A stretch of DNA of 64,000 nucleotides from Chloroflexota bacterium (GCA_003141955.1 PLOC01000003.1:462-64461), one strand, 5' to 3'; shown: positions 51,378 to 63,361, numbered from the stretch's first letter. Numbers and translations: made by a program. The notes: generated by a model from the letters alone, not told the origin.

Positions 51378-51648
51378 CTCATGCTCCTGTCGCGAGGTCT
51401 CTGGACCATCGGACGATATCAGGTGGGCGCCTAGCCGTCCTGGCCCGCCGATGACCAGCGCCGTCCGTAGTTGGGATGTACATGGGGGGTGCGGATCGCA
51501 GCCGAGCCCGCGGACCGGCGGCGCGCGGATCGGCCCTTACGCGAGATTGGCTCCCAGTCAGGCGACGCGAGGCCGCCACGGTGGCAGTACCCACCCAGGT
51601 CCGCCGGCCAACGCACGTGATCTCGGGGCACAACCCCTGGCTGCCCCG

Positions 51649-51679
51649 AAACGAGGAAGGGCACCCAGCTAGGGTGCCC
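51649..51679 (-). terminator. intrinsic terminator downstream of tRNA-Gly
   Basis: GGGCACCC-agcta-GGGTGCCC perfect 8-bp stem, followed on the minus strand by TTCCTCGTTT. Confidence 0.6.
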
Positions 51680-51703
51680 TCACGTTACCGGAACGGAAGA
51701 ATG

Positions 51704-51779
51704 TGGAGCGGGAGACGGGATTCGAACCCGCGACATTCTGCTTGGGAAGCAGACACTCTGCCAGCTGAGTTACTCCCGC
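51704..51779 (-). tRNA. tRNA-Gly (anticodon CCC)
   Basis: GCGGGAGTAACTCAGCTGGCAGAGTGTCTGCTTCCCAAGCAGAATGTCGCGGGTTCGAATCCCGTCTCCCGCTCCA. Cloverleaf with anticodon loop TTCCCAA, a GTTCGAATC T-loop, discriminator U and encoded CCA. Confidence 0.9.
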
Positions 51780-51782
51780 TCG
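51741..51782 (+). repeat. att core copy 1 (inside tRNA-Gly; covers tRNA nt 1-39 plus 3 nt of 5' flank)
   Basis: CTTGGGAAGCAGACACTCTGCCAGCTGAGTTACTCCCGCTCG; identical 42-mers at 54735-54776 and 56923-56964. Confidence 0.85.
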
Positions 51783-51866
51783 ATTCACGCTCGTGGAGAG
51801 CGTCTGCCTTTCGGAGAGGCCCGCCGCGCTGGTCCTGGAGCAGAAAACTGAGTAAGATGGTGCGAG

Positions 51867-52907
51867 ATGCGCGAGCCATCCGACCCAGCCTCGCTGCCAC
51901 CCGTGCGACGTGCCCGACCGAGCGGCGCCCATCCTACACCGCGCCCCGCCGCCCCGGCAACGACCGCCCTCGCCTCCGACATCGCGAGCTTCCGCCGCCA
52001 TCTCGCGGCCCGCAACCTGTCGCCCAAGACCGAGCGGACGTACACCGACGCCGCAGTCCTGTTCGAGGCCTTCATTGCCCGCGAGGGTCCGCCCGCTGCC
52101 CTGCCGGCGATCCGGCGCGAGCACGTCGAGGCCTTCATAGCCGACCAGCTCCGCCGTTACAGGCCCACCACCGCGCACAACCGGTACCGCAGCCTCCAGG
52201 CGCTTTTCAAGTGGGCAGTCGAAGAAGAGATGATTGTGACCTCGCCGATGGATCGGATGAAGCCGCCGATCGTCGGGGAGCAGCTGCCGCCGATGCTGAG
52301 TGACGATGAGATCCGGGCCTTGCTCAACGTCTGTGCCGAAGATCACACGTTCGCGGGCCGGCGCGACGAGGCGCTCGTCCGGGTGCTGCTCGACAGCGGT
52401 GCCCGTCGGGCCGAGATCGCCGCACTGCGCTGGACGCCTGGCAACCCGGAAACGAACGACGTCGACCTCGATGGCCGCCAGCTGCGGGTGCTGGGGAAGG
52501 GCCGGCGGGAGCGCCTGGTGGTGATCGGTCGAGAGGCGGTCAGGGCACTCGATCGTTACCTGCGCTACCGCGACGGCGGAACACGTCATGGCAAGTTGAT
52601 CCCGCCGCACCACTCGGCTCACCTGCCCAACCTTTGGCTCGGACCCAAGGGCGCCTTCACGGAATCCGGGATGGGCCAGATGATCCATGAACGGGGCGTC
52701 GCCGCCGGTCTCGGGCATCACGTTCACCCCCACATGTTCCGCCGGACCTACGCCCACAAGATGCTCGCCGGGGGCATGAGCGAGACCGATCTGATGACGC
52801 TCGCTGGCTGGCGCTCACGGACGATGGTCTCGCGCTACGCCGCGTCGGCGGCCGCTGAGCGAGCCGCCGAGGTGGGTAAGCGGCTGAGCCCGGGCGACAA
52901 GCTGTAG
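51867..52907 (+). CDS. int: tyrosine recombinase / phage-type integrase
   Basis: N-terminal SAM-like domain (ASDIASFRRHLAARNLSPKTERTY). Catalytic region has HPHMFRRTYAHKM and MVSRYAAS (Tyr). Confidence 0.85.
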   Translation: MREPSDPASLPPVRRARPSGAHPTPRPAAPATTALASDIASFRRHLAARNLSPKTERTYTDAAVLFEAFIAREGPPAALPAIRREHVEAFIADQLRRYRPTTAHNRYRSLQALFKWAVEEEMIVTSPMDRMKPPIVGEQLPPMLSDDEIRALLNVCAEDHTFAGRRDEALVRVLLDSGARRAEIAALRWTPGNPETNDVDLDGRQLRVLGKGRRERLVVIGREAVRALDRYLRYRDGGTRHGKLIPPHHSAHLPNLWLGPKGAFTESGMGQMIHERGVAAGLGHHVHPHMFRRTYAHKMLAGGMSETDLMTLAGWRSRTMVSRYAASAAAERAAEVGKRLSPGDKL

Positions 52908-52966
52908 GTGCTGGCGCGTCGGGGGATTACCGAGGCCGGCGTCCAGCCCGGTCGCGTCCGGCGGGG

Positions 52967-53902
52967 TTGCGAGTTCGTCAGGGGCCTCCACCGCCAGTGC
53001 GATCAGGTGCAGGATTCGACGAAGAGCGTGCGATCCTGCCTATGAGCGACCTGGCGGGTCTGACTGTTTGCTCTGCTCGGTCTTGGCCAGCACACATCAC
53101 GACCGGAGAGGTTCACGGACGGCAACCGGCCCTCAGCGTCGCGAGCACGAAGGCAGCGCTCGCGGCCTTGACTGCCACCCTCCGCATCTATACTGTTCGC
53201 ACTATGTTTGAGGATACGTCTTCCCCTGCGCCGGGCTTTCTGCCCATCGTCCCCGCGGCCAAACGCCTCGGCGTCACGCAGGGGCGAGTCCGTCAACTGA
53301 TCAAGTCCGGCGATCTCCTCGCCAACCAGGTTGGCGACATCTGGCTTGTCGAGAGTGAGAGCGTGGAACGCCGGATCGCCCTTGCGCCGGGCCATGGCCG
53401 CAGGCTCACGCCAGCTCGCGCCTGGGGCCTATTGTGCATTGCCGATCACCAGCCGGCTCCGTGGCTCGATAGGTCCGCCCGATACAGGGTGAGGGCGCTG
53501 CTCCGAGATCGCGGTCTTCGCGCCTTGAGTTCGAAGCTGGTCGATCGGGGTCTGCCCGTGCGGCTACGATCCCACCCATCTCTTCTCCGGCGACTGCGCA
53601 ACGATCCCCGCCTCATGCTGACCGGCGCTACGGCCGCGGCCGAACTCGGTCTCGGCCTGCTTGCTGGCGATGTCGTGGAGGCATACATCGAGGGCGGCCG
53701 GTTCGAGGAGATCAGCCAGGAGTATCACCTGCAGCCGAGCCGAGAGACCAACGTCGTGCTGCGTCGGGTTCGGGACTTCGCGGCTACTTGGCCGCTCGCT
53801 CCCAAGACGCCACTGTTGGCCATCGCGCTCGATCTTTCCGAGGATCCCGATCCGCGGGTGCGCGAACTCGGGGCGTCACTGCTCGACCGCATTGACCCGT
53901 GA
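52967..53902 (+). CDS. AbiEi-like type IV toxin-antitoxin antitoxin / transcriptional regulator (excisionase-type HTH)
   Basis: LPIVPAAKRLGVTQGRVRQLIKSGDLLANQVGDIWLV is an excisionase-family HTH, followed by an AbiEi-like C-terminal domain. The true start may be the ATG at 53204. Confidence 0.5.
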   Translation: MRVRQGPPPPVRSGAGFDEERAILPMSDLAGLTVCSARSWPAHITTGEVHGRQPALSVASTKAALAALTATLRIYTVRTMFEDTSSPAPGFLPIVPAAKRLGVTQGRVRQLIKSGDLLANQVGDIWLVESESVERRIALAPGHGRRLTPARAWGLLCIADHQPAPWLDRSARYRVRALLRDRGLRALSSKLVDRGLPVRLRSHPSLLRRLRNDPRLMLTGATAAAELGLGLLAGDVVEAYIEGGRFEEISQEYHLQPSRETNVVLRRVRDFAATWPLAPKTPLLAIALDLSEDPDPRVRELGASLLDRIDP

Positions 53903-54624
53903 CTCAGCCGATCGTCGTCCATTCGGCAAGCGAGGCCGATGCACACCTCTGGCGGCTGACCAAGGAGATCACGGTCTTGTTCGCCGGCCTGCCATGGGTC
54001 CTCATCGGGGGTCAGATGGTCGCCATCCTCGAGGCTGAGCACGGGGCTGTTATTGGCAGGGCGACGGCAGACGTCGACGCGCTGCTCGATGTGCGGGTCG
54101 TGTCCACCGTCGCCCAGGATGCCGCAAATCTCCTCCGAGCTGCTGGCTTCGAGCCTGAGCAGATCGGCGAAGGACTGGCATATCGCTTCAGGCGAGGCGC
54201 TGGCATCGTCGACATCCTGGTTCCCGACCATCTCGGCGGCCGCGCCGATTTGCGGACTGTGCCGCCCGGCATCACGCTTGAGGCGCTTGGTGGCCGCCAA
54301 GCGCTGAACCGGTCTCGCCGGGTTCAGGTGGATGCCGGGGACGGCGTCTTCGAGGTGCCCATCCCTTCGCTCATCGGCGCGATCGTGATCAAGGCCCGCG
54401 TTACCGGGGCCAGCCAGACTGGCGCCGACAAACACCGTCGCGATCTCGCCCGATTGCTCGCCCTGGTCCAAGACCCAACCGCAAGCCGAGGTGAGCTGAA
54501 CAAGGGTGAGCGAGCCTGTTTGCGAGCTCGGACCGAACTTCGGAGCGTCGATCACCCGGCCTGGCGCGGCATCGCAGGAGCGAAAGACGGCGTCCTGGCC
54601 CTCTCGATCCTGGGTGGCTCGTAG
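53899..54624 (+). CDS. AbiEii-like nucleotidyltransferase toxin (DUF1814 type)
   Basis: VLIGGQMVAILEAEHGAVIGRATADVDALLDV is the NTase GG...DxD signature. GTG overlaps the upstream stop (GTGA). Confidence 0.5.
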   Translation: MTQPIVVHSASEADAHLWRLTKEITVLFAGLPWVLIGGQMVAILEAEHGAVIGRATADVDALLDVRVVSTVAQDAANLLRAAGFEPEQIGEGLAYRFRRGAGIVDILVPDHLGGRADLRTVPPGITLEALGGRQALNRSRRVQVDAGDGVFEVPIPSLIGAIVIKARVTGASQTGADKHRRDLARLLALVQDPTASRGELNKGERACLRARTELRSVDHPAWRGIAGAKDGVLALSILGGS

Positions 54625-54734
54625 CCATCGCAGCAGGGGCTGGCTCGTGTCAAGTCGCCAAGAGCAACAGCGTATAACTGGGTGAGAAACCGAGGGGTCG
54701 CCATGAGGGGGGCCGTGGCTGTGGGAGGCTCAGA

Positions 54735-54776
54735 CTTGGGAAGCAGACACTCTGCCAGCTGAGTTACTCCCGCTCG
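54735..54776 (+). repeat. att core copy 2, embedded in a flank of about 150 bp shared with copy 3
   Basis: Identical 42-mer. Flanks GAGGGGTCGCCATGAGGGGGGCCGTGGCTGTGGGAGGCTCAGA and ...GTTATAGCAGATCGCGCGA are shared with copy 3. Confidence 0.85.
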
Positions 54777-54930
54777 GAGCAGAACGAGTTATAGCAGATC
54801 GCGCGAAGGCCGCGGAAGAGCGCGATTGGGCGGAGGTCTGCCAGACGCGAAGAATGTCGGAAGGTCGGTTTGCCGCTGGTCTCCACGAGATGACCCGACG
54901 AAGAACTTCGGCGGCGGCCCGTCCCGAGCC

Positions 54931-55590
54931 TCAGCTAGGCAGCGCCCTGTTCGCCCGTACCCATTCGAGCCAGTGGCGTTCGGCTCCGATGGTGGTTGCC
55001 GCACCGTGGCCGGGCAACACCGTCAGCCGGTCGTCCAGACCGACCAGGCGGCTCAGCGACTCTGCCATCTGCTCCTCGGATCCGCCGGGGAGATCGGTCC
55101 GGCCCCATGATCCTGCGAACAGCGTGTCACCCGAGAGCAGGAGACTGTTCGTGAGGTCGAGCAGACAGACCGAGCCCTCGGTGTGTCCCGGCGTGTGCAG
55201 GACCTCGAGGTCGATCTCGCCGAACTTGACTCGGCCACCCTCGGCCAGTTCCACCGCCGGAACGCTGGGCGGGATGGGAAACGGGGCGAAGAGCGGCTGC
55301 GGGTGCAAGAGCATCTCGCGGTCGAGTGGATGCACGGCGATGCGAGCGTCGTCGCCGCGTTGACGACCGTGCGTCCAGGCTTGCACAGCCGCGTTGTCGC
55401 CCACGTGGTCCCAGTGGCCGTGGGTGGACACGATCAGTTTCAGCCGCCAGCCACGCTCCTCGAGGAGGCCGCCCAGCCAGGCAACCGAGGGAATCGCCGT
55501 GTCGATCGCGATCGCCTCGTGCGTCCGCGAATCGGCGAGGACGTAGACGTTGGTCGCGATCGGGCCAACCGTCCGGCTGAGGAGCTCCAT
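54931..55590 (-). CDS. MBL-fold metallo-hydrolase (glyoxalase II / hydroxyacylglutathione hydrolase-like)
   Basis: VSTHGHWDHVGD (HxHxDH) and later PGHTEGS. 219 aa. Confidence 0.75.
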   Translation of the reverse strand: MELLSRTVGPIATNVYVLADSRTHEAIAIDTAIPSVAWLGGLLEERGWRLKLIVSTHGHWDHVGDNAAVQAWTHGRQRGDDARIAVHPLDREMLLHPQPLFAPFPIPPSVPAVELAEGGRVKFGEIDLEVLHTPGHTEGSVCLLDLTNSLLLSGDTLFAGSWGRTDLPGGSEEQMAESLSRLVGLDDRLTVLPGHGAATTIGAERHWLEWVRANRALPS

Positions 55591-55820
55591 GCTCGGAGAC
55601 TAGCACGGCTTCGAGGTGGTCCCGCTGGCCACCAGCCTGGGCCGTTGCGGCACATGGTCGGCGCCGCGAGTCGGTCCCATCAGACTGGCGCCGGTCAACT
55701 TACGATCCGACGGGCGGCTCACACAGGTTTCGGTCTCGCGTCCGCGACCACGAGGTGGCGCGTTCGGCGTAGGCTGGACAAGTCCGGGTTCATCGCGCCC
55801 TGTGGGCCGCCCATACCGTA

Positions 55821-55925
55821 GCGGGCTGGCGCTCGCGGACGATGGTTTCGCGCTACGCGGCGTCGGCCGCCACCGAACGGGCCGCTGAGGTGGGCAAGCG
55901 GTTGAGCCCGGGCCGACAAGCTTTA
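55821..55925 (+). pseudogene. integrase 3'-end remnant
   Basis: About 85% identical to the last 100 nt or so of the int gene, plus roughly 100 nt of downstream similarity (GCTGGCGCTCGCGGACGATGGTTTCGCGCTACGC...). A 1-nt indel gives GGGCCGACAAG versus GGGCGACAAG. Confidence 0.7.
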
Positions 55926-56111
55926 GGTGCTGGTTCGTGGGAGATTACCCAGCCTAAGGTCCCGCACGGTCGCCTGGGGCGGGGTTGCCGAGTTCGTCTG
56001 TGGTCTCCGCCGCCGGTGTTCGCCGTCCCGAGCCGCAGGGCGAGTCGCCGGAGGCGGTCCTCGACTGCGAGATGCTCACCGCCAGGAGTGCCGTCCGCGG
56101 TGTGTGTGATG

Positions 56112-56669
56112 TCAGGTGTCGGAGCGGAGCGGCTCGAGTGTGAGGGTCAGCACGTCCTTTCGCGCGAAGATGCCCAGGAAGCGAACGCCGCAGAGGAAGA
56201 GCGCGACGCCGAGCCCGCTGTAGAAGAAGGCGATCATCCAGTCCGGCATCAGGTGCGAGAGGCGGAGTGCCATGCCGCCGCCCATCATCACCGCCATCAC
56301 CGCCCAGGACGAGGCGTTGAAGAAGTGCCAGAAGGGGAGCCGATCCTCCGCCCGCGCGCGGATTCGACCGGCGTGCTTCCGGACGAGCCGGGAGAAGATG
56401 ACGAAGTAGAACACGAGGAAGATCACCACCGCGAGCGGGAAGAGGATCAGGTGCGAGGGCGCCAGCCCGAACTCCAACGGCAGCCCGATTATGCAGACCA
56501 TCGCCCCCGCCGCGCACCAGACTAGGCCGGCGATGAGCATCAGGTGGTTCTTGGGAATGTGGACGACTTGCACGCTTCGAACACTCCTGACGCACTGGTC
56601 GATGGGTGGCGCGATTGTACCCACACGGAATGTGAGGTCGCGCGCAGAGGTATCAGCCTGGCGCTCCAC
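56112..56669 (-). CDS. small integral membrane protein (hypothetical)
   Basis: Four hydrophobic helices (MLIAGLVWCAAGAMVCIIGL...). The reported start is GTG at 56669; the internal ATG at 56540 is an alternative. Confidence 0.45.
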   Translation of the reverse strand: MERQADTSARDLTFRVGTIAPPIDQCVRSVRSVQVVHIPKNHLMLIAGLVWCAAGAMVCIIGLPLEFGLAPSHLILFPLAVVIFLVFYFVIFSRLVRKHAGRIRARAEDRLPFWHFFNASSWAVMAVMMGGGMALRLSHLMPDWMIAFFYSGLGVALFLCGVRFLGIFARKDVLTLTLEPLRSDT

Positions 56670-56922
56670 GGCTCGGGGTGCGCATCACTGCCCGTCGGCG
56701 ATGTCCCGCGCTGGTCCGATCTTCCGGCCGGGGATCGTTTGGGACCCTACGGCCGCCCCCGGGTGGCTCCTCGACGAACTGCTGCCGAACCTGGAGATCT
56801 GACGGGCGATTGGGGCGGCATGGCGGTCCACTCGTCTCGAATTGGCCCAGAGTGACAGCGGATAACTGTGGTCGAAACGGAGGGGTCGCCACGAGGGGAG
56901 CCGTGGCTATGGGAGGCTCAGA

Positions 56923-56964
56923 CTTGGGAAGCAGACACTCTGCCAGCTGAGTTACTCCCGCTCG
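56923..56964 (+). repeat. att core copy 3
   Basis: Identical 42-mer. Confidence 0.85.
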
Positions 56965-57185
56965 GCGAGCAAGCGCAGTTATAGCAGATCGCGCGAGAGG
57001 GTCGGAAGGGGGCTGGTCAAGGGCTTTCGGTCGCGCGGACATTCTGCGCAGGAGGCAAAGGCACTCGGTCTATCGGCCTTGTTCTGGTTCTGGCCGAGCG
57101 ACGGGATGGCGCAACGCGCCTGAACCGGTGGCCCGAGGACGGTCGATTCGCTGCCATCCCCGGCCACCGCGGCGTCCAGCGACCC

Positions 57186-57401
57186 TCAGGCGTCGTCCAG
57201 GATCCGGTCGGCCTTCCGGTCGATCTTCTGCTTCTGAGCGCCGGTGATCTTCCCTTCGCTCTCTTGCTGGGACGCGCGTGCCTTGGCATTGCGGGCGTGA
57301 GATTCGTCGGGCATCGGGTACTTGCGCTCGCCGGGTAGCCCGAAATCCGAGCTGGGCAGAGACTCTCGTTTCTTGGGACTCAGCTTGGCCATCTTGGTCA
57401 C
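57186..57401 (-). CDS. small basic hypothetical protein
   Basis: 71 aa, MTKMAKLSPKKRESLPSSDFGLPGERKYPMPDESHARNA... Confidence 0.35.
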   Translation of the reverse strand: MTKMAKLSPKKRESLPSSDFGLPGERKYPMPDESHARNAKARASQQESEGKITGAQKQKIDRKADRILDDA

Positions 57402-58029
57402 TCCTTTGACTAGTGCGCGTGCGCAGAAGCCATCAGCGCTGGGATCGGCACCGGAATGGGCCTGCCTGGCAGGTCTGGTCTCTCCTGCCTCGCTCCGTCG
57501 GCGTCGTCGGCGTCATCGTCTTCGTGGTCATCGTTCTCTGGGTATTCGGCTCATCAGGCTGTAAGCCGAGGCGTCGGGGCCACCACTCGGAACGTTCCTC
57601 GATGAGGTCAGGCGCGGTAGTTAGGAGTGGCAGGCACGACAAGATCGCGTCCTCGCGCTTGGGACGCGATCTCGTTAGGAGTGAGGGATCGGCCCGCGCA
57701 AGATGGCGCGGGCTATCAGCGACGGTAGAGACTGAACCCGCCGCCGAAAAGGAGGATGAGGACCACGATGATTAGCAGGATTTCCATGGGGAACCTTCTT
57801 TCGGCCTCAGCTTGGTCGTCTTCACCCGAAGGAACGAGGATGGAAACTCCATTCCGGAGAACCGCAGTCGACCACAGCCGGCAGTGGGCCGCTCCGCGAT
57901 TAGGGCCGTGCTCCGCCGTTGAGGAGGCGGGTTCTCATCCTCGCGGCCGGCGTCGATGGCGCCCAGACTCAAAGAGCGGCATGAGGATTCATGCCTGACT
58001 TGGGCAAGCGCAGCTAATGGAGTACCGAG

Positions 58030-58203
58030 ATGACCGGTGAGTACAACAAAGGCACTGTCAACAAGGCCAAGGGCAAGGTCGAGGAAGGGCTCGGCAAGTT
58101 GACCGGCAACACGTCGCAGCAAGCCAAGGGCAAGGCAAAGCAGGTCCAGGGTAGCGCCCAGCAGGCCGTGGGCAACGTCCAGGACGCCACCCGACGGCGC
58201 TGA
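58030..58203 (+). CDS. CsbD-family stress protein
   Basis: 57 aa, MTGEYNKGTVNKAKGKVEEGLGKLTGNTSQQAKGKAKQVQGSAQQAVGNVQDATRRR (KxKG repeats). RBS GGAG upstream. Absent from the ORF track because it is shorter than 60 aa. Confidence 0.7.
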   Translation: MTGEYNKGTVNKAKGKVEEGLGKLTGNTSQQAKGKAKQVQGSAQQAVGNVQDATRRR

Positions 58204-58306
58204 CAGGGAGGCCGTCGTCGAAGACGGCATGAAGCGCCCACGCGCTAACGCTCAGCTGGAGCGCGAGGCCCGTTCGTCTAGCTGAGAGCCGCAGTCTGCT
58301 CAACAC

Positions 58307-58777
58307 ATGGCGCTGTGGCGCCTGGAGCGGGGCGCGCGAACTCTGATTGAGCTAGGTGTAGAGGTCCTCGAACGCGGCGAATATCGCGAAGAACAGCCGC
58401 TGCACGATCTCATCGAATCGCCCACTCGTCGCCGTTGGGCGCTCGCCACCGTGGGCCGCCCTGTTCCGAACGACCAGCGCGATCGAGGCGTCGCTCTCAC
58501 GTGGGGTCAGGACGCGTGGGAAGCCCGCGTCTACGACAGCACCCCGGCGCATGCATTCCTGCGGATGCTCGATCCCAAGAACGGGCTCGCCCCGGGCGAC
58601 CCGGCGCGCATGGCGGCCGGAATCATTTCGAGCGTTGACCGAGAGCCCGCTCCCTTGCGCATGATCCTGGGATCCGACGCGCTCCGGAATACCCTCACGG
58701 TACTCAAGGCGCGCGTCGCAGCGTTCGAGGCGCAGACCGAGATCGCTGCCTCGACAGACTTCCCGCCCGGAGAGTGA
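58307..58777 (+). CDS. hypothetical protein; its C-terminus resembles the C-terminal tail of some SDR-family oxidoreductases (possible gene remnant)
   Basis: ...RMILGSDALRNTLTVLKARVAAFEAQTEIAASTDF. No Rossmann N-terminus is present. Confidence 0.3.
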   Translation: MALWRLERGARTLIELGVEVLERGEYREEQPLHDLIESPTRRRWALATVGRPVPNDQRDRGVALTWGQDAWEARVYDSTPAHAFLRMLDPKNGLAPGDPARMAAGIISSVDREPAPLRMILGSDALRNTLTVLKARVAAFEAQTEIAASTDFPPGE

Positions 58778-58818
58778 TGTTCGTGGACACTGAGCGTCGA
58801 CGTTCCAAAGGAGAAGAG

Positions 58819-59217
58819 ATGCAGGTCCTCAAGAAGCAGCCGACGGTGAAGGCTCCGGCCGAGACATTCACGGGCGACGCCTGGTTCGACGTCATCGCCC
58901 GCGGCGAGGAACCGTCGCGGATTCGCGTCAGCGTCGTCCGGTTCGCGCCGGGCGCACGCAATGCCTGGCATGCGCACGCGGTCGGGCAGACGGTGCACGT
59001 GACCGAGGGAGTAGGGCTCATCCAGGCTCGCGGCGAGAAGGTCATCGAGATTCACCCCGGCGACACTATCCACACCCCTCCCGGCGAGTGGCACTGGCAC
59101 GGAGCCGCGCCCGATCGCTTCATGACTCACCTCGCCATGTGGGAGGCGTCGGCCGAGGGCGAGGAAGCTGAGTGGGGCGCACTGGTCACCGACGCCGAGT
59201 ACCTCGGCAGTCGGTAG
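58819..59217 (+). CDS. cupin-domain protein
   Basis: AWHAHAVGQTVHVTEGVGLI...GEWHWHGA are the cupin motifs. ATG 58819 sits 6 nt after AAGGAG. Confidence 0.7.
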   Translation: MQVLKKQPTVKAPAETFTGDAWFDVIARGEEPSRIRVSVVRFAPGARNAWHAHAVGQTVHVTEGVGLIQARGEKVIEIHPGDTIHTPPGEWHWHGAAPDRFMTHLAMWEASAEGEEAEWGALVTDAEYLGSR

Positions 59218-59242
59218 CCGGCAGGAGAAGGAGGTTTGCGCC

Positions 59243-59617
59243 ATGTCCGGCTGGACTGCGGACGAGCTCGCGCGGATAGGCAAGGCCGACGAGCTCCAGA
59301 TCACTTCGCGACGCCGCGACGGTTCCCTCCGGCCCTACGTGACCATCTGGGTCGTCCGCTCGGGCGACGACCTGTACGTGCGCTCAGCCTATGGTCGGCA
59401 CAACGGCTGGTTCCGGCGCGCGCTGTCGTCTGGCGCGGGCCGGATCCGCGCCGGCGGTTTGGAGCGGGACGTCGCGTTCGAGGAGCCAGGTTCCGCCGTG
59501 GACGACGAGCTCCACCGGGCCTACCACGCGAAGTACGACCGCTACGGGCCGACCTTCGTCGGTCCGGTGGTTTCGCCCGAGGCGGCCAGGTCAACCCTCA
59601 GGCTCGTGCCTAGGTAG
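59243..59617 (+). CDS. DUF2255-family protein
   Basis: MSGWTADELARIGKADELQITSRRRDGSLRPYVTIWVVRSGDDLYVRSAYG... Confidence 0.6.
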   Translation: MSGWTADELARIGKADELQITSRRRDGSLRPYVTIWVVRSGDDLYVRSAYGRHNGWFRRALSSGAGRIRAGGLERDVAFEEPGSAVDDELHRAYHAKYDRYGPTFVGPVVSPEAARSTLRLVPR

Positions 59618-59690
59618 ACGTATCTCGGGTCTTGCGATACGGCCTCGAGATGGACGGGGAGGCGAGCCCATAAGCGAGCGTCGTGCCAGT

Positions 59691-59722
59691 CGTGATCACG
59701 ATAGGTGTTGTTATCGTGATCA
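59691..59722 (+). promoter_or_regulatory. palindromic operator-like site
   Basis: TGATCACGATA-ggtgttgt-TATCGTGATCA (11-bp arms), including the perfect 10-bp palindrome CGTGATCACG, in a GC-poor patch 60 nt upstream of the next gene. Confidence 0.4.
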
Positions 59723-59779
59723 GGCCGACCCGGTGGCACGGGATCCGGTTGATTTCGCGACGAGGCCCGATACTGTGAA

Positions 59780-60691
59780 GTGGATATGAGCGAGCCTTCA
59801 TCGGACTCCGATCCCACCGATGGCACGACGAAGCGTAACGGGCCCGAACCTGGATTCGAAGAGATCCCGCTCGACCTCTCCAAGGTGCCCTCGCTCGAAC
59901 AGGGTCTCGCCGACGCCTCGAGGCGTTACCGGGTCTTCATGGAGATCGTTGGCGAGTCCCTGCGGCCGATCAAGGGCGCAGTGATCTTCCGCGAGCACCT
60001 GGCTCTCGTGTCGTTTGTCAACCGAGCATCATCTCTCCACAAGGCGATCGTGTCGGCGGTCGAGGGCGCAAACCCTCATGCGGCCTTCACACTCCTGCGG
60101 GCATACCTCGCACTCGTCGTTCTAGTCCGGTATCTCGACCTACACCCTGGCTACCTCGACGACTTGGAGAAGCCCAGGCCGGCGGGAAAGCGCAAGAGGT
60201 TCAAGGAACTCTTCGAGGACGCCGCCAGCGAGATGGCCGGGGTCCGCCTCGTCTACGCCACCCTGTCGGAGATGGCGCACTTCGGCTCGACAGCCTTGTG
60301 GCACCCCTTCACCATCACGGATGAGGCCGAGCGGACGCTTTCCTTCTCGACTGCGCCGCACTGGAAGCACCCAGATGACGGCCGCATCGCCCTAGCGATG
60401 CTCGCCGAGTCCGACGAGGCAATGATCGAGGTCCTCCACCGCTACTCGGAGCACCACGTCCTGCCCAAGGTCGAGCAGCATCGCAGCGCCGAGCGCATCC
60501 GCGCCGCGTTCGAGGCCGCCGGCGCCACGCCCGGTGAGGTGGGCATCGGGTTCTTGTCACCCGAGCTAGGCCGGGAGGCGCTTGCTGCCGGGCTTGTCGA
60601 GTGGTGCGAGGAGCACGAAGCCATGGAAGTCGCCGAGGGGGTCACCCCCGAGCGGGTCGAGAAGTGGGTGCAGGAGCGTCAAGGCTCGTGA
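59780..60691 (+). CDS. hypothetical protein
   Basis: 303 aa with no recognisable motif. GTG 59780 or ATG 59786. Confidence 0.45.
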   Translation: MDMSEPSSDSDPTDGTTKRNGPEPGFEEIPLDLSKVPSLEQGLADASRRYRVFMEIVGESLRPIKGAVIFREHLALVSFVNRASSLHKAIVSAVEGANPHAAFTLLRAYLALVVLVRYLDLHPGYLDDLEKPRPAGKRKRFKELFEDAASEMAGVRLVYATLSEMAHFGSTALWHPFTITDEAERTLSFSTAPHWKHPDDGRIALAMLAESDEAMIEVLHRYSEHHVLPKVEQHRSAERIRAAFEAAGATPGEVGIGFLSPELGREALAAGLVEWCEEHEAMEVAEGVTPERVEKWVQERQGS

Positions 60692-61099
60692 GAGGTTCGT
60701 AACCCGCTGTGGAGTCAACGGACCGTGTCGTCATCGCGCCCGTGCGGGCGCCCGTCGGTTCACGATAATGAGTTTTATGGTGTTAACCGGCGAGCTCCAG
60801 ACGTCGGCTGCGCGCTCTGGCCGCGCCTGATCGGAGGGGGATTCGCCACGACCTGACTGAGACTGTTTGCCGGCGCGGCAGAATGTCGGGTTCGACGTGT
60901 CGACTACGGATCGTTGGAGGCGGGCGTCGTCATAATGGCCCTGCCCTGCACACTGCTGTTCCTCGGGCTCCAGGGACAGTACGTGCGAGGCTTCATGTCC
61001 GGAGCAATCAAGGGCTGATCGACCAGGGGCTGATCGACGGGGAGTGCGCGGTTCGGGCCCCCGATCGATCGAGACCCTAGATAGTTTGGAGTAGCTGAG

Positions 61100-62608
61100 T
61101 TGAAGGCGCTCGGAGAATTCGAGGTCTGGTTCGTAACGGGCAGCCAGGACCTCTACGGCGAAGAGACGCTCCGCCAGGTGGCCGAGAACTCGGGCAAGAT
61201 CGCGGCCGCCCTCGACTCCGGCGAGTCGATCCCGGTTCGAGTGGTCTGGAAGCCCGTCGTGAAGAACTCGGAAGCGATCCTGGCGACTCTCATCGAGGCG
61301 GGCGCCACGGACAAGTGCGTCGGCGTCATCGCCTGGATGCACACCTTCTCTCCGGCGAGGATGTGGATCGCCGGCCTGCAGGCCCTGCAGAAACCCCTTC
61401 TCCACCTGCACACCCAGTACAACCGCGATCTCCCGTGGGCCGAGATCGACATGGACTTCATGAACCTCAACCAGGCCGCGCACGGCGACCGTGAGTTCGC
61501 CCACATCGAGGCCAGGCTGGGGTTGCGGCGCAAGACGGTTGCCGGCCACTGGCAGGAGAAGGCGGTCCAGGAACGGATCGGAACGTGGTGCCGGGCCGCG
61601 TGCGGACTGCACGAGTCACGCCACCTCAAGCTGGCCCGCTTCGGCGACAACATGCGCAACGTGGCCGTCACCGAAGGCGACAAGGTCTCCGCCCAGGTGC
61701 AGTTCGGAGTCACGGTCAACGGCTTCGGCGTATCTGATCTAAGCGACGCGGTGCGGGCAGTGGCGGACGCAAAGGTCGACGAACTGGTTCGGGCCTATGA
61801 AGCCACATACGAAGTCGCACCGTCCCTCCGAGCCGGCGGCGCAGATCGCGAGGCCCTCCGCGAAGCGGCCCGGATAGAGGCTGCACTTCGGGAGTTCATG
61901 ACCGTGGGCGGCTTCAGCGCCATCACCGACACCTTCGAGAACCTCGATGGGCTCAAGCAGCTGCCCGGCATCGCCGCTCAGCGTTTGATGGCAGACGGCT
62001 ACGGGTTCGGTGCGGAAGGCGACTGGAAGACCGCCGTCATGGTCCGTCTGGTCAAGGTCATGGCGAAGGGGCTGCCGGGCGGAACGTCGTTCATGGAGGA
62101 CTACACATACCATCTCGATCCCGCAGGGCCGAAGGTGCTGGGCGCGCACATGCTCGAGGTCTGCCCCTCGATCTCCGACGGCAAGGTCTCCTGCGAGATT
62201 CATCCGCTGTCTATCGGCGGTAGAAGCGACCCCGTACGGCTGGTCTTTGACGCGGGATCCGGCCCGGCCGTGGTCACGGCCTTGATGGACATGGGCGACC
62301 GATTCCGGATCGTCGCCAACGAGATCGACCTCGTGCCGCCGGACGAGCCGATGGGCAAACTGCCCGTTGGGCGCGCGGTTTGGAAGCCACGCCCGAACTT
62401 CGCCACCGCAACCGAGAGCTGGCTCACAGCAGGTGGCTCTCACCACACAGTGCTGACCCGGGCCGTGGGTGTCGGAGTGATCGCCGACTTCGCCGAGATG
62501 GCCGGTTGCGAGTTTCTGCTTATCGACAGCGACACGACCGTCGCCAGCTTCAAGAAGGAGCTTCGCTGGAACGAGGCTTACTACCACCTGGCCCGTGGCC
62601 TGCGATGA
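61100..62608 (+). CDS. araA: L-arabinose isomerase
   Basis: [21 protein letters not shown]...[10 protein letters not shown]...MEDYTYH... TTG start after GGAG. Confidence 0.9.
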
Positions 62609-62641
62609 ACGCGGCCGTGCCCTGCGAACGGAGGAGACCAA

Positions 62642-63361
62642 TTGGCGTCGCTTTCGCTGGCTGAGTTGCGGGAAGAGGTCCTGCGAGCCAACCAGGCGCT
62701 CGTTCGTGCCGGGCTCGTGACCCTTTCATTCGGCAACGCCAGCGGCGTCGACCGAGATGCCGGCGTCCTCGTCATCAAACCGAGCGGGGTTCCTTACGAC
62801 GAGCTCCGACCGGAGAGCCTGGTCGTCGTCTCGCTCGAGGACGGCCGGGCAGTCGAAGGCCAGCTGAGCCCGTCTTCTGACACGCCCACTCACCTGGTCC
62901 TCTATCGCCGCTTCCCCGAGATTGGTGGCGTGGTCCACACGCACTCACCCGCAGCCACGGCCTGGGCTCAGGCCGGACGATCGATCCCTCCTCTGGGAAC
63001 GACGCACGCCGACCACTTCCTCGGCCCGGTGCCGGTGACGCGGCAAATGACCTCGAGCGAGGTCGCGGGCGAGTACGAGGCCGAGACCGGCGCAGTGATC
63101 ATCGAGGCGCTGGGGCGGCTTGGGCTGAGCGCCACCGAGATGCCGGCCGTGCTTGTGACCTCGCATGGGCCCTTTACCTGGGGCCGCGACGCCTCGGAGG
63201 CCGCGGACAACGCCACCGCCCTCGAGGCCGTGGCGGCGATGGCGGCTCAGACGCTCGCCCTCAACCCGAATGCCGAGCCGATGGCCGACTACCTGCTGGA
63301 GCGCCACTTTCGGCGTAAGCACGGCCCCAACGCTTACTACGGGCAGCGAGGCGGCGGATGA
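62642..63361 (+). CDS. araD: L-ribulose-5-phosphate 4-epimerase
   Basis: Class II aldolase fold: GLVTLSFGNASGVDRDAGVLVIKPSGV...GVVHTHSPAATAW. TTG start after GGAGGAG. Confidence 0.85.
   Translation: MASLSLAELREEVLRANQALVRAGLVTLSFGNASGVDRDAGVLVIKPSGVPYDELRPESLVVVSLEDGRAVEGQLSPSSDTPTHLVLYRRFPEIGGVVHTHSPAATAWAQAGRSIPPLGTTHADHFLGPVPVTRQMTSSEVAGEYEAETGAVIIEALGRLGLSATEMPAVLVTSHGPFTWGRDASEAADNATALEAVAAMAAQTLALNPNAEPMADYLLERHFRRKHGPNAYYGQRGGG

What the first reader, a model, noticed from the sequence alone, without database searches (positions are those of the whole stretch)
51649..56964. tRNA-Gly(CCC) integration hotspot: integrase plus AbiEi/AbiEii element, a decayed second element, and three direct repeats of the tRNA 5' half
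A 42-bp sequence covering tRNA positions 1-39 plus 3 nt of 5' flank is repeated exactly at 54735 and 56923. Integrase att cores normally duplicate the tRNA 3' end. Here the duplicated part is the 5' half, and the integrase gene sits just upstream of the tRNA 5' end. The element would therefore have displaced the original tRNA promoter region and must now supply its own. Copies 2 and 3 share homologous flanks of about 150 bp. Element 2 keeps only a roughly 100-nt integrase 3' remnant (55821-55925, about 85% identical, with an indel), which indicates serial integrations with decay of the older copy. Element 1 carries an apparent AbiE-type (type IV TA / abortive infection) pair: an HTH antitoxin and a GG...DxD nucleotidyltransferase toxin. 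The GC-poor region with small orphan genes (CsbD, cupin, DUF2255, an SDR-like fragment) runs on to about 61080 and may be older island debris.
Basis: seen in the sequence. Interest (0 to 1): 0.6.

Follow-up and report, generated by a model that had tools for sequence, protein, structure and literature searches.

The report
Reverse-oriented integrative elements at tRNA-Gly
A tRNA-Gly(CCC) gene of a Chloroflexota bacterium carries a small integrase element and a decayed, host-DNA-carrying second unit that inserted on the tRNA's 5' side, a documented but minority orientation that here turns out to be the rule for a whole clade of integrases.

Summary
One intact tRNA-Gly(CCC) lies at 51704-51779 on the minus strand. 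An exact 42-nt block (tRNA positions 1-39 plus 3 nt of 5' flank) occurs three times, at 51741, 54735 and 56923. The tRNA 3' half occurs once.

Element 1 (51783-54734) holds an intact tyrosine integrase and an HTH plus nucleotidyltransferase gene pair. That pair is only a remote relative of AbiE: the window proteins miss every AbiE model.

Eleven metagenome contigs show the empty site, with the intact tRNA followed by a conserved AGTTATAGCAGAT promoter region. So these are true insertions that push the native promoter 3 to 5 kb away.

Unit 2 (54777-56922) is not simply a decayed element. It starts with a native-type tRNA promoter and a metallo-beta-lactamase-fold gene. That same pair is the chromosomal flank of an empty site in contig L104. 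It is joined to an integrase 3' remnant, which suggests aberrant excision that carried off host DNA.

Among 74 evaluable related integrase loci, 66 face away from a tRNA 5' end. All 16 distal repeats found are 5' halves.

The orientation itself is known (Zhao and Williams 2002; 159 of 3919 Islander islands). This is a new member of a known kind.

The parts
51704..51779 (-). Intact tRNA-Gly(CCC). Its 3' half (51704-51740) is chromosomal. Its 5' half (51741-51779) is copy 1 of the repeat and was supplied by element 1.
   Evidence: ARAGORN; Rfam RF00005, 68 bits; the 3' half is unique in the window
51741..51782 (.). Repeat copy 1 (C1): tRNA positions 1-39 plus 3 nt of 5' flank. This is the attL core.
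51783..51866 (.). Integrase-proximal arm of element 1. It is conserved among related elements and contains the inverted repeat ACGCTC-N5-GAGCGT and a palindrome GCCTTTCGGAGAGGC. It replaces the native tRNA promoter.
   Evidence: Comparison of upstream regions in 70 loci; sequences
51867..52907 (+). Tyrosine integrase, 346 aa, XerC/D-like. It has a SAM-like N-terminal domain and a catalytic domain with R180, K211, H289, R292, W315 and Y324.
   Evidence: PF00589 E=4e-23 and PF13495; conserved columns in A1; homologues
53204..53902 (+). 232-aa protein with an excisionase/MerR-type HTH (HTH_17) and a C-terminal domain. Presumed antitoxin or regulator. Its stop overlaps the start of the next gene.
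   Evidence: Sub-threshold HTH_17, Rv2175c_wHTH and TIGR01764 hits; most homologues carry PF12728 and 2 of 44 carry PF09952 AbiEi_2
53899..54624 (+). 241-aa nucleotidyltransferase of the Pol-beta fold (LIGGQ...DVDALLD, DILVPD). It belongs to an unannotated family distantly related to AbiEii. Presumed toxin or effector.
   Evidence: No family hit for the window protein; 6 of 32 homologues hit PF08843; AF2 pLDDT 86; Foldseek best hits are ANT(2'')-Ia, TUTases and CCA enzymes; sits in TA/defence-rich neighbourhoods
54652..54734 (.). Distal arm ('end') of element 1. It is conserved in all related tRNA-Gly elements and contains GTATAACT and the inverted repeat GCCAYG-N8-CGTGGC.
54735..54776 (.). 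Repeat copy 2 (C2)
54777..54830 (-). N2: a native-type tRNA promoter region (TGCTATAACT on the tRNA strand, about 15 nt upstream of the 5'-half copy)
   Evidence: The same motif follows the intact tRNA in 11 empty-site contigs; alignment
54931..55590 (-). Metallo-beta-lactamase-fold hydrolase, 219 aa. It is a chromosomal neighbour of the tRNA promoter in related genomes and appears here inside the array.
   Evidence: PF00753 E=8e-26; window 54735-55609 is 90% identical to the empty site in L104, and 54667-55675 is 94% identical to the distal flank in L019
55676..55820 (.). Junction interval with no detected homology. Presumed illegitimate joint between captured host DNA and the truncated element.
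   Evidence: Ends of the homology blocks
55821..56018 (+). Integrase 3' remnant (last ~35 codons, to 55925) plus the region downstream of int. It is 76-87% identical to element 1, with a 1-nt indel.
   Evidence: D2, D11, D5, D7
56112..56669 (-). 185-aa predicted membrane protein with no family match: the remaining cargo of unit 2
   Evidence: its last 32 codons also lie next to the geneA homologue in L103
56840..56922 (.). Distal arm ('end') of unit 2, 89% identical to that of element 1
56923..56964 (.). Repeat copy 3 (C3): the displaced original 5' half
56965..57066 (-). N3: the native tRNA promoter region (AGTTATAGCAGATCGCGCGA on the + strand), followed by a decayed tRNA-Gly-like relic at 57008-57066
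   Evidence: The flank continues at 87-90% identity in empty or near-empty sites L103, L099, L101 and L098; relic alignment score 39 vs shuffles 18.2 +/- 3.5, 0 of 500

Best explanation
tRNA-Gly(CCC) is an attachment site for small integrative elements whose tyrosine integrase recombines at the anticodon loop in the mirror image of the usual configuration.

How integration works. The element's attP carries the tRNA 5' half (positions 1-39 plus 3 nt) rather than the 3' half. Integration therefore rebuilds the tRNA from the chromosomal 3' half and the element's 5' half. It places the integrase gene 87 nt upstream of the tRNA, facing away. It also pushes the original 5' half and its promoter to the far end of the element.

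Element 1 (about 3.0 kb) is intact and was the last to enter. It carries a two-gene HTH plus nucleotidyltransferase module that probably acts as a toxin-antitoxin or abortive-infection addiction/defence module. This function is inferred.

Unit 2 (about 2.1 kb) entered earlier. It is most likely a defective derivative made by aberrant excision in a donor genome. In this model, an illegitimate break inside int and another beyond the host MBL gene produced a circle: int remnant, membrane gene, element end, 5' half, native promoter, MBL. That circle then recombined through the 42-bp core into this tRNA.

Shown: the repeats, the integrase, the empty sites, the native status of the promoter and of the MBL flank, and the clade-wide 5' orientation.

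Inferred: crossover in the anticodon loop, the order of events, the aberrant-excision origin of unit 2, the function of the cargo, and how the tRNA is now transcribed.
For: Repeats and tRNA. Three exact 42-nt copies, with a unique 3' half.

Integrase. Intact, with catalytic residues conserved.

Related elements. Integrases 78-92% identical show the same layout at tRNA-Gly(CCC): tRNA, divergent int, 2.5-7.5 kb of variable cargo, the conserved 'end' arm, then a 5'-half copy. This holds in L006-L008, L012, L013, L015-L018 and L053.

Empty sites. Eleven contigs have the intact tRNA directly followed by CTCGG..AGTTATAGCAGAT. L103, L099 and L101 continue into the window's N3 flank. L104 continues into N2 plus MBL.

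Clade survey. Of 74 evaluable species-representative loci:
- 66 have a tRNA on the opposite strand within 300 nt upstream of int;
- 3 have it on the same strand;
- the 5 others have the Gly 5' half next to int.
A distal repeat was found in 16 loci. All 16 cover tRNA positions about -4 to 42, across Gly, Ala, Val, Lys, Arg and Pro tRNAs.

Aberrant-excision model. L096 has the same architecture as unit 2: tRNA, native promoter, a truncated host thiolase gene fragment, int-less element cargo, 'end', 5' half, promoter.

Int-less and truncated units in other arrays. L022 has a truncated core copy directly before the same HTH-NTase module at 95% identity. L053 has a second integrase remnant.
Against: No circular form or excision product was observed.

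No convincing promoter for the tRNA was found in the window's integrase-proximal arm, so expression of the rebuilt tRNA is unproven.

The aberrant-excision history of unit 2 is one of several paths that need one illegitimate joint. The junction interval 55676-55820 has no homologue to pin it.

L103 shows only an 87-nt fragment of the membrane gene next to the geneA homologue. The history of these flanks is therefore more tangled than a single event.

All comparison loci are metagenome assemblies. Repeats can cause misassembly, and L019 has an NN gap inside the tRNA.
Confidence: 0.8

Rival explanations
1. Unit 2 is not a transduction-like product. It is the result of a deletion between two neighbouring tRNA-Gly loci. 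In this view the ancestor had tRNA_a (promoter N2, then MBL) and, further upstream, tRNA_b (promoter N3) carrying an element. One deletion removed tRNA_b's 3' half, its core copy and most of int.
For: One deletion suffices. A decayed tRNA-Gly-like relic lies just upstream of the N3 promoter (57008-57066), which shows that tRNA-Gly sequences have been duplicated at this locus. N2 and N3 share a homologous promoter segment of about 50 nt.
Against: No related contig shows two functional tRNA-Gly(CCC) genes separated by MBL. In empty sites N2-MBL (L104) and N3-geneA (L103, L101, L098) are alternative flanks of a single tRNA. L096 shows the same architecture with a truncated host gene, which is better explained by capture.
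Confidence: 0.15
2. Int-less units that begin with a native-type promoter (window unit 2, L096, L099) are a regular class of satellite. Their attP is 'end-core-promoter', and they are mobilised in trans by the integrase of elements like element 1. On this view the MBL gene is ordinary cargo, not captured host DNA.
For: Three loci have a promoter-type left arm. Such a unit would restore a native-type promoter next to the tRNA, which could be selected. The distal 'end' arm is conserved in unit 2 and in L096.
Against: L104 has N2-MBL at a site with no second core copy in the 4.3 kb of sequence held to its right. L096 carries a truncated thiolase fragment, and the window unit carries a truncated int. 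Both are signs of illegitimate joints rather than a designed element. L099 lacks the 'end' arm.
Confidence: 0.2
3. The 42-nt copies are remnants of tandemly duplicated tRNA-Gly genes that lost their 3' halves, and the integrase is an unrelated neighbour.
For: A tRNA-like relic exists at 57008-57066.
Against: Copies 2 and 3 are exact over 42 nt and stop sharply at tRNA position 39. The sequence to their left is the conserved element arm, not a T arm. The same boundary (positions 37-42) recurs for six other tRNA species next to related integrases. Empty sites exist.
Confidence: 0.02

Closest known systems
Reverse-orientation tDNA islands (Zhao and Williams 2002, J Bacteriol 184:859; the '5' tDNA fragment' class of the Islander database)
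   Same: The displaced fragment is the 5' part of the tRNA gene and lies upstream of the intact gene. The integrase is inside the island, and the native promoter is displaced. Islander counts 159 such islands among 3919 (PMC4383910). [quoted passage not shown]
   Different: Here the orientation is the rule for a whole integrase clade in Chloroflexota, covering at least 16 tRNA anticodon types. I could not read the 2002 paper (not held), so details of its element are from memory only.
pTN3-like integrases of Thermococcales (Cossu et al. 2017, as reviewed in PMC8371274)
   Same: attB is the 5' half of a tRNA gene and the tRNA is rebuilt after integration. The review states that the recombinant tRNA is expressed from the integrase promoter region. 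Here too the int gene is divergent and immediately upstream of the tRNA.
   Different: The pTN3 group is archaeal and of the 'suicidal' type, where int is split by integration. Here int stays intact, 87 nt from the core. No sequence relationship was tested.
Conventional anticodon-loop (class A) tRNA integrases
   Same: The inner boundary of the identity block falls at the anticodon stem-loop (positions 37-42). In several loci the same tRNA also carries conventional 3'-half repeat arrays (positions 30-77) on its other side. Integrases 45-49% identical sit mirrored on that side.
   Different: The half of the tRNA carried by attP and the side on which the element lies are reversed.
AbiE (AbiEi/AbiEii) type IV toxin-antitoxin / abortive infection system
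   Same: Two overlapping genes: an HTH protein followed by a Pol-beta-fold nucleotidyltransferase with GG...DxD motifs. The module sits in defence- and TA-rich neighbourhoods. A minority of homologues touch PF08843 and PF09952.
   Different: The window proteins match no AbiE model. The HTH is excisionase/MerR-type (HTH_17), not the AbiEi winged helix. The toxin is 241 aa, against about 300 aa for the annotated AbiEii genes seen in L013 and L107.
Tycheposon arrays in Prochlorococcus (bioRxiv 10.1101/2020.12.28.424599)
   Same: Serial integration at one tRNA pushes older elements outward. Fragmented integrases and partial tRNAs mark the remnants.
   Different: A different integrase family and host. 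Whether tycheposons leave 3' or 5' partial tRNAs was not checked here.
Lambda dgal-type specialised transducing derivatives
   Same: The proposed origin of unit 2: illegitimate excision that keeps one hybrid att site, takes adjacent host DNA and loses element genes from the other end.
   Different: No virion is involved as far as can be seen. This is inferred from architecture only.

Membership tests
Tyrosine recombinase / phage integrase (PF00589) | Catalytic domain matches the family model above its curated cut-off | tested here: met
   PF00589 82.3 bits vs cut-off 27.1, plus the SAM-like N-terminal domain PF13495
Tyrosine recombinase / phage integrase (PF00589) | Catalytic residues R-K-H-x-x-R-(H/W)-Y are present | tested here: met
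   R180, K211, H289, R292, W315 and Y324 are invariant or nearly invariant in the 16-sequence alignment A1, numbered on the window protein. Assignment to catalytic roles is by motif (GxRxxE, GKG, HxxR, Y) from general knowledge.
XerC/XerD chromosome dimer resolvases | Score reaches the equivalog cut-off | tested here: not met
   TIGR02224 134 bits vs 335; TIGR02225 122 vs 330. The protein is XerC/D-like in architecture only.
tDNA-integrating genomic island, 5'-fragment (reversed) class | Intact tDNA plus a cognate fragment in direct orientation, with an integrase gene between them | tested here: met
tDNA-integrating genomic island, 5'-fragment (reversed) class | The fragment is the 5' part and lies upstream of the tDNA | tested here: met
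   The fragment covers positions 1-39 plus 3 nt. Copies lie on the 5' side at +2994 and +5182 nt.
tDNA-integrating genomic island, 5'-fragment (reversed) class | An unoccupied site exists in related genomes | tested here: met
   11 contigs have the intact tRNA joined to the native upstream region. Two flank types match the window's N2-MBL and N3 flanks at 87-90%.
tDNA-integrating genomic island, 5'-fragment (reversed) class | The element supplies a promoter for the rebuilt tRNA | tested here: inconclusive
   The consensus scan finds nothing. TATAGT-like motifs occur about 65-70 nt upstream of the tRNA in the arms of the tRNA-Ala group but are degenerate in the window's arm.
tDNA-integrating genomic island, 5'-fragment (reversed) class | Excision to a circle and re-integration | not testable with these tools
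   Needs reads or PCR across the attP and attB junctions
AbiE type IV TA / Abi system | Toxin matches AbiEii (PF08843) | tested here: not met
   No hit for the window protein at E<=1. 6 of 32 family members hit, best E=1.9e-6. The PADLOC search at E<=0.01 also gave nothing.
AbiE type IV TA / Abi system | Antitoxin matches an AbiEi model (PF13338, PF09407, PF09952 and related) | tested here: not met
   Only sub-threshold HTH_17 and Rv2175c_wHTH hits. 2 of 44 homologues carry PF09952.
AbiE type IV TA / Abi system | Pol-beta nucleotidyltransferase fold in the toxin | tested here: met
   AF2 model pLDDT 86. Foldseek top hits are ANT(2'')-Ia, TUTases and CCA-adding enzymes at E about 1e-3. The GG...DxD and D motifs are visible in the sequence.
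AbiE type IV TA / Abi system | Overlapping bicistronic antitoxin-toxin arrangement | tested here: met
   The stop of the HTH gene (53900-53902) overlaps the GTG start of the NTase gene (53899). The same 4-nt overlap with an upstream partner is seen in L106, L107 and L109.
AbiE type IV TA / Abi system | Growth arrest by the toxin, neutralised by the partner; phage protection | not testable with these tools
   Needs an experiment

The most novel reading that the evidence does not exclude
A clade of Chloroflexota tyrosine integrases is dedicated to mirror-image integration at the anticodon loop, carrying the tRNA 5' half in attP. In this configuration the distal junction (element end, 5' half, native promoter) is itself a complete, promoter-bearing substrate. 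Illegitimate excisions would therefore repeatedly generate int-less units that carry off the host gene next to the tRNA promoter and re-insert it in other genomes. This would be a virion-independent analogue of specialised transduction, one that also puts a native promoter back in front of the tRNA. The window's unit 2, L096 and possibly L103 would be three products of this process.
Probability: 0.35. Interest if true: 0.65.

Novelty: new member of a known kind. Interest (0 to 1): 0.45.

Why it matters
Integration on the 5' side of a tRNA gene separates the gene from its promoter. Such elements must either supply transcription or live with a weakened tRNA. That is why this orientation is rare (about 4% of Islander islands).

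Here a whole integrase clade makes it the default, and related integrases use the mirror orientation on the other side of the same tRNA. This gives a natural system for asking two questions: what sets insertion orientation at a nearly symmetrical core, and how the tRNA stays expressed.

The promoter-armed, int-less units suggest a route by which host genes next to tRNA promoters are moved between genomes.

For annotation, island finders that only look for 3' fragments will miss these elements in Chloroflexota.

Tried and rejected

Promoter search. The sigma-70 consensus scan of 51500-57300 found no site on either strand. It also missed the native tRNA promoter, so it is uninformative here.

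Whether copies 2 and 3 are degenerate tRNAs. Rejected.

L019, which seemed to lack the 5' half next to int. This is an NN assembly gap.

The idea that L103 is a clean aberrant-excision product of a window-like unit. Weakened, because only 87 nt of the membrane gene are present there.

Papers. Zhao and Williams 2002 and Williams 2002 could not be read because they are not held. A search for literature on Limnocylindrales integrases found nothing relevant.

Synteny. I could not define a single ancestral right flank. Flanks on both sides of this tRNA differ between even close relatives.

Full report
**1. The observation**

ARAGORN finds one tRNA in the 64-kb window, tRNA-Gly(CCC), at 51704-51779 on the minus strand. 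Rfam finds the same gene and nothing else between 49000 and 62000.

The 42-mer CTTGGGAAGCAGACACTCTGCCAGCTGAGTTACTCCCGCTCG occurs exactly three times, at 51741, 54735 and 56923, all in the same orientation. No match appeared in 100 dinucleotide shuffles. Read against the tRNA, it covers positions 1-39 plus three bases of 5' flank.

A 31-mer from the tRNA 3' half occurs only once, even with three mismatches allowed. The sequence to the left of copies 2 and 3 bears no resemblance to a T arm.

Copies 2 and 3 share 83 nt of left flank and about 47 nt of right flank. The integrase remnant at 55821-55925 is real and continues, after a 1-nt indel, into the region downstream of int up to about 56018.

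**2. What the parts are**

The ORF 51867-52907 is a tyrosine integrase: PF00589 at E=4e-23 with a SAM-like N-terminal domain. The catalytic R, K, HxxR, W and Y positions are conserved in an alignment of 16 relatives. It is XerC/D-like but far below the XerC and XerD equivalog cut-offs.

The next two genes overlap by 4 nt. The first, most likely starting at 53204, has only sub-threshold matches to excisionase/MerR-type HTH models. The second matches nothing in Pfam, NCBIfam or PADLOC.

Homologue searches give a more graded answer.
- The 241-aa protein belongs to a populous unannotated family. 6 of 32 sampled members touch PF08843 AbiEii (best E=1.9e-6).
- The partner family mostly carries PF12728 HTH_17. 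2 of 44 carry PF09952 AbiEi_2.
- An AlphaFold model (pLDDT 86) resembles Pol-beta-fold nucleotidyltransferases such as ANT(2'')-Ia, terminal uridylyltransferases and CCA-adding enzymes, at weak Foldseek E-values.
- In three unrelated contigs the gene again overlaps an upstream partner and sits among AbiE, PIN, BrnT, Phd/YefM, Fic and restriction genes.

I therefore read the pair as a toxin-antitoxin or abortive-infection-like module that works like AbiE but is not a demonstrable member of that family.

**3. These are insertions: empty sites and the native promoter**

In every related element the distal 5'-half copy is followed, 10-14 nt later, by AGTTATAGCAGAT. On the tRNA strand this reads TGCTATAACT, an extended -10-like motif about 15 nt upstream of tRNA position 1.

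A scan of metagenome contigs for the intact tRNA joined directly to this motif returned 11 contigs. So the motif belongs to the native upstream region of tRNA-Gly(CCC), and unoccupied sites exist.

Two of these empty-site flanks match the window.
- L103, L099, L101 and L098 continue into the window's sequence to the right of copy 3, at 82-90% identity. In L103 and L099 this includes the 71-aa ORF at 57186-57401 (geneA).
- L104 continues, at 90% over 878 nt, into the window's sequence to the right of copy 2, through the whole MBL-fold gene 54931-55590.

**4. Element 1 and its relatives**

Integrases 78-92% identical to the window's occur in peat and fen metagenomes and in Limnocylindrales MAGs. 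Wherever the contig allows, the layout is the same:
- tRNA-Gly(CCC) on one strand and int on the other, 87-88 nt away;
- a conserved 84-nt proximal arm;
- variable cargo;
- a conserved distal arm of about 85 nt ending in GGGAGGCTCAGA;
- the 5'-half copy.

Cargo differs between elements:
- HTH_17 plus PIN, a primase-helicase, and DUF6364 plus PIN in L001;
- a DUF6036-like NTase plus a MarR-like protein in L006, L012 and L019;
- Fic in L013.

The window's HTH-NTase module is 95% identical to one in L022. There it forms an int-less unit behind a truncated core copy. Small integrase-plus-addiction-module elements in arrays, with frequent loss of int, are thus the norm at this site.

**5. Unit 2 is a composite**

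The interval between copies 2 and 3 reads, from left to right:
- native-type promoter N2;
- the MBL gene;
- a 145-nt interval without homologues (55676-55820);
- the last 35 codons of an integrase and its downstream region;
- a membrane-protein gene;
- the distal arm.

The block from core through N2 to MBL is contiguous at 94% identity at the distal end of an integrase element in L019. It is also the flank of an empty site in L104. It is therefore chromosomal DNA of a related genome, not original element DNA.

The arrangement is what one expects if, in a donor with an element next to N2-MBL, illegitimate recombination joined a point inside int to a point beyond MBL. The resulting circle would then recombine through its core copy into a tRNA-Gly whose native flank was N3.

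L096 shows the same design independently: tRNA, native promoter, a truncated thiolase gene fragment, int-less element cargo, distal arm, core copy, promoter.

I give this model about even odds. Two rivals also need one illegitimate joint: a deletion between two neighbouring tRNA-Gly loci, and a regular class of promoter-armed satellites. L103 shows only an 87-nt fragment of the membrane gene next to geneA, which shows that these flanks have been reshuffled more than once.

**6. The orientation is a property of the integrase clade**

A scan of one genome per species with an integrase alignment returned 80 loci, almost all of them Chloroflexota MAGs, at 45-88% identity.

- Six loci have too little upstream sequence to judge.
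- Of the remaining 74, 66 have a complete tRNA on the opposite strand within 300 nt upstream of int.
- Three have it on the same strand.
- The five without a called tRNA all have the Gly 5' half next to int.

Targets include Gly-CCC and -TCC, Ala-GGC and -TGC, Thr-CGT, Val-GAC, -TAC and -CAC, Pro-TGG and -GGG, Arg-TCG and -CCG, Lys-CTT and -TTT, Asn and Gln.

A distal repeat on the int side was detectable in 16 loci. In all 16 it covers tRNA positions from about -4 to 37-42. None reaches the 3' half.

The inner boundary at the 3' edge of the anticodon loop matches the anticodon-centred class of att sites. I infer that the crossover is in the loop, as for conventional class A integrases.

In several loci the same tRNA also carries arrays of conventional 3'-half repeats (positions 30-77) on its other side (L012/L016, L006, L020, L033, L060). 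Integrases 45-49% identical sit mirrored on that side in L104, L018 and L033, and one 33% identical in L047. The two configurations are mirror images about the anticodon stem-loop.

**7. The promoter question**

The native promoter is displaced 3.0 kb (N2) and 5.2 kb (N3) from the intact gene. The consensus scan is uninformative.

Across the clade, the proximal arm carries two direct copies of an AGTTAT-type motif, at about -70 and -33 relative to the tRNA, and a palindrome of variable sequence just upstream of the tRNA.
- On the int strand the distal motif reads CTATAAC, like the native tRNA promoter, and sits about 25 nt before the int start. It is probably the int promoter.
- In the tRNA-Ala group the same motif reads TATAGT towards the tRNA and could work in both directions.
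- In the window's arm it is degenerate (CAGTTTTCTGCTCC).

How, or whether, the rebuilt tRNA-Gly(CCC) is transcribed is open. In L020 the two tRNA halves are separated by an 874-bp insert. In L001 no tRNA 3' half is present in the 10 kb held to the left of the integrase. This suggests the gene may be dispensable or duplicated elsewhere.

**8. Comparison with what is known**

Recombination with the 5'-distal part of a tRNA gene is documented and rare.
- PMC6563490 cites Zhao and Williams 2002 and four archaeal studies and calls it 'considerably less frequent'.
- Islander lists 159 islands with a 5' tDNA fragment against 3760 with a 3' fragment.
- The review PMC8371274 says that, with very few exceptions, the bacterial recombinant tRNA keeps its original promoter. 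It also says pTN3-like archaeal integrases use the 5' half, with the tRNA expressed from the integrase promoter.

Arrays of elements and remnants at a tRNA are known from tycheposons.

The window's element is therefore a new member of a known, minority kind. Two things appear undescribed in the papers I could search. One is the clade-wide consistency of the orientation in Chloroflexota. The other is the set of promoter-armed, host-DNA-carrying units.

**9. Verdict**

- Observation: confirmed.
- Interpretation: right in its core, corrected on the AbiE assignment, the nature of unit 2 and the 'island debris'.
- Novelty: new member of a known kind.
- Interest: 0.45.

Noticed in passing
window 57008-57066: A decayed tRNA-Gly-like relic lies just upstream of the native N3 promoter, in the same orientation as the tRNA. 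It aligns from the tRNA 3' end to about position 22 (score 39; shuffles 18.2 +/- 3.5; 0 of 500 reach it). Its core GGACATTCTGC is conserved at the same place in L101, L103 and L022, with one mismatch in L098. The N2 flank shows no significant match.
   Followed up: partly
L012/L016 3718-7131; L006 2579 and 4159; L020 3426-9000; L033 383; L060 7560: The same tRNA that carries 5'-half arrays on one side carries arrays of conventional 3'-half repeats (positions about 30-77) on the other side. In L012 these fill the 7.8 kb between the tRNA and the GFO/Idh/MocA gene, which in the window lies only 326 bp from the tRNA.
   Followed up: partly
L104 7567-8424(-); L018 8810-9669(-); L033 8730-9600(-); L047 8827-9633(-): Integrases related to the window's (45-49% identical in L104, L018 and L033; 33% in L047) sit on the 3' side of the same tRNA, also facing away from it. 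The tRNA is thus bracketed by two divergent int genes with mirror-image att configurations. L018 and L033 look frameshifted.
   Followed up: partly
L020 8964-9913: The tRNA-Gly is split. The 3' half is at 8964-9000, followed by an 874-bp insert that may encode a small toxin-antitoxin-like gene pair on the opposite strand (read by eye, not tested), and then the 5' half at 9875, directly before int. CTTG is present at both joints, as if a unit with only the loop core had integrated without rebuilding the gene.
   Followed up: no
L001 9740-9839; L022 9820-9875; L041 8230-8284: A second type of element end, with the hairpin CGGAAGGCTAGCCTTCCG, precedes the 5' half next to int in these loci. No tRNA 3' half lies within 10 kb in L001, where the neighbouring 6 kb holds a different integrase, a ParB-methyltransferase and unknown genes. 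Nature unknown.
   Followed up: no
window 51783-51866 and the equivalent arms of 70 loci: The integrase-proximal arm carries two direct copies of an AGTTAT(N3)CT(C/G)T motif about 37 nt apart. It also carries a palindrome whose sequence differs between tRNA-specificity groups but whose position (about -40 to -10 from the tRNA) is kept. The distal arm has the same motif (GTATAACT) in the same orientation. These are candidate promoters or protein-binding sites.
   Followed up: partly
window 58307-59617: A truncated SDR gene (only the C-terminal ~82 aa are homologous), followed by cupin and DUF2255 genes, lies about 1.4 kb to the right of copy 3. In L013 and L017 the full SDR-cupin-DUF2255 cluster, and in L103 its cupin and DUF2255 genes, lie on the other (3') side of the tRNA in the same relative orientation. 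In L015 it lies on the 3' side inverted. This suggests a translocation with a breakpoint near 58528.
   Followed up: partly
L099 5050-6620 (minus strand as read): A single Kelch-repeat-like secreted protein gene lies between the tRNA and a second core copy. The direct repeat here is about 66 nt and includes the leader and the promoter -10. There is no conserved distal arm.
   Followed up: no
L103 11251-11337 vs window 56105-56191: The last 87 nt of the window's membrane-protein gene sit, at 90% identity, 12 nt beyond the homologue of window 57506 in an otherwise empty site. In L103 a fragment of the unit 2 'cargo' is therefore adjacent to the native flank gene.
   Followed up: partly
window 59780-60691 and 61100-63361: A DUF5677 protein lies at 59780-60691. 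L-arabinose isomerase and a class II aldolase follow from 61100, so ordinary metabolic genes resume there. G+C stays at 0.61-0.67 from about 57000 to 62900, against 0.69-0.72 to the left of the tRNA.
   Followed up: no
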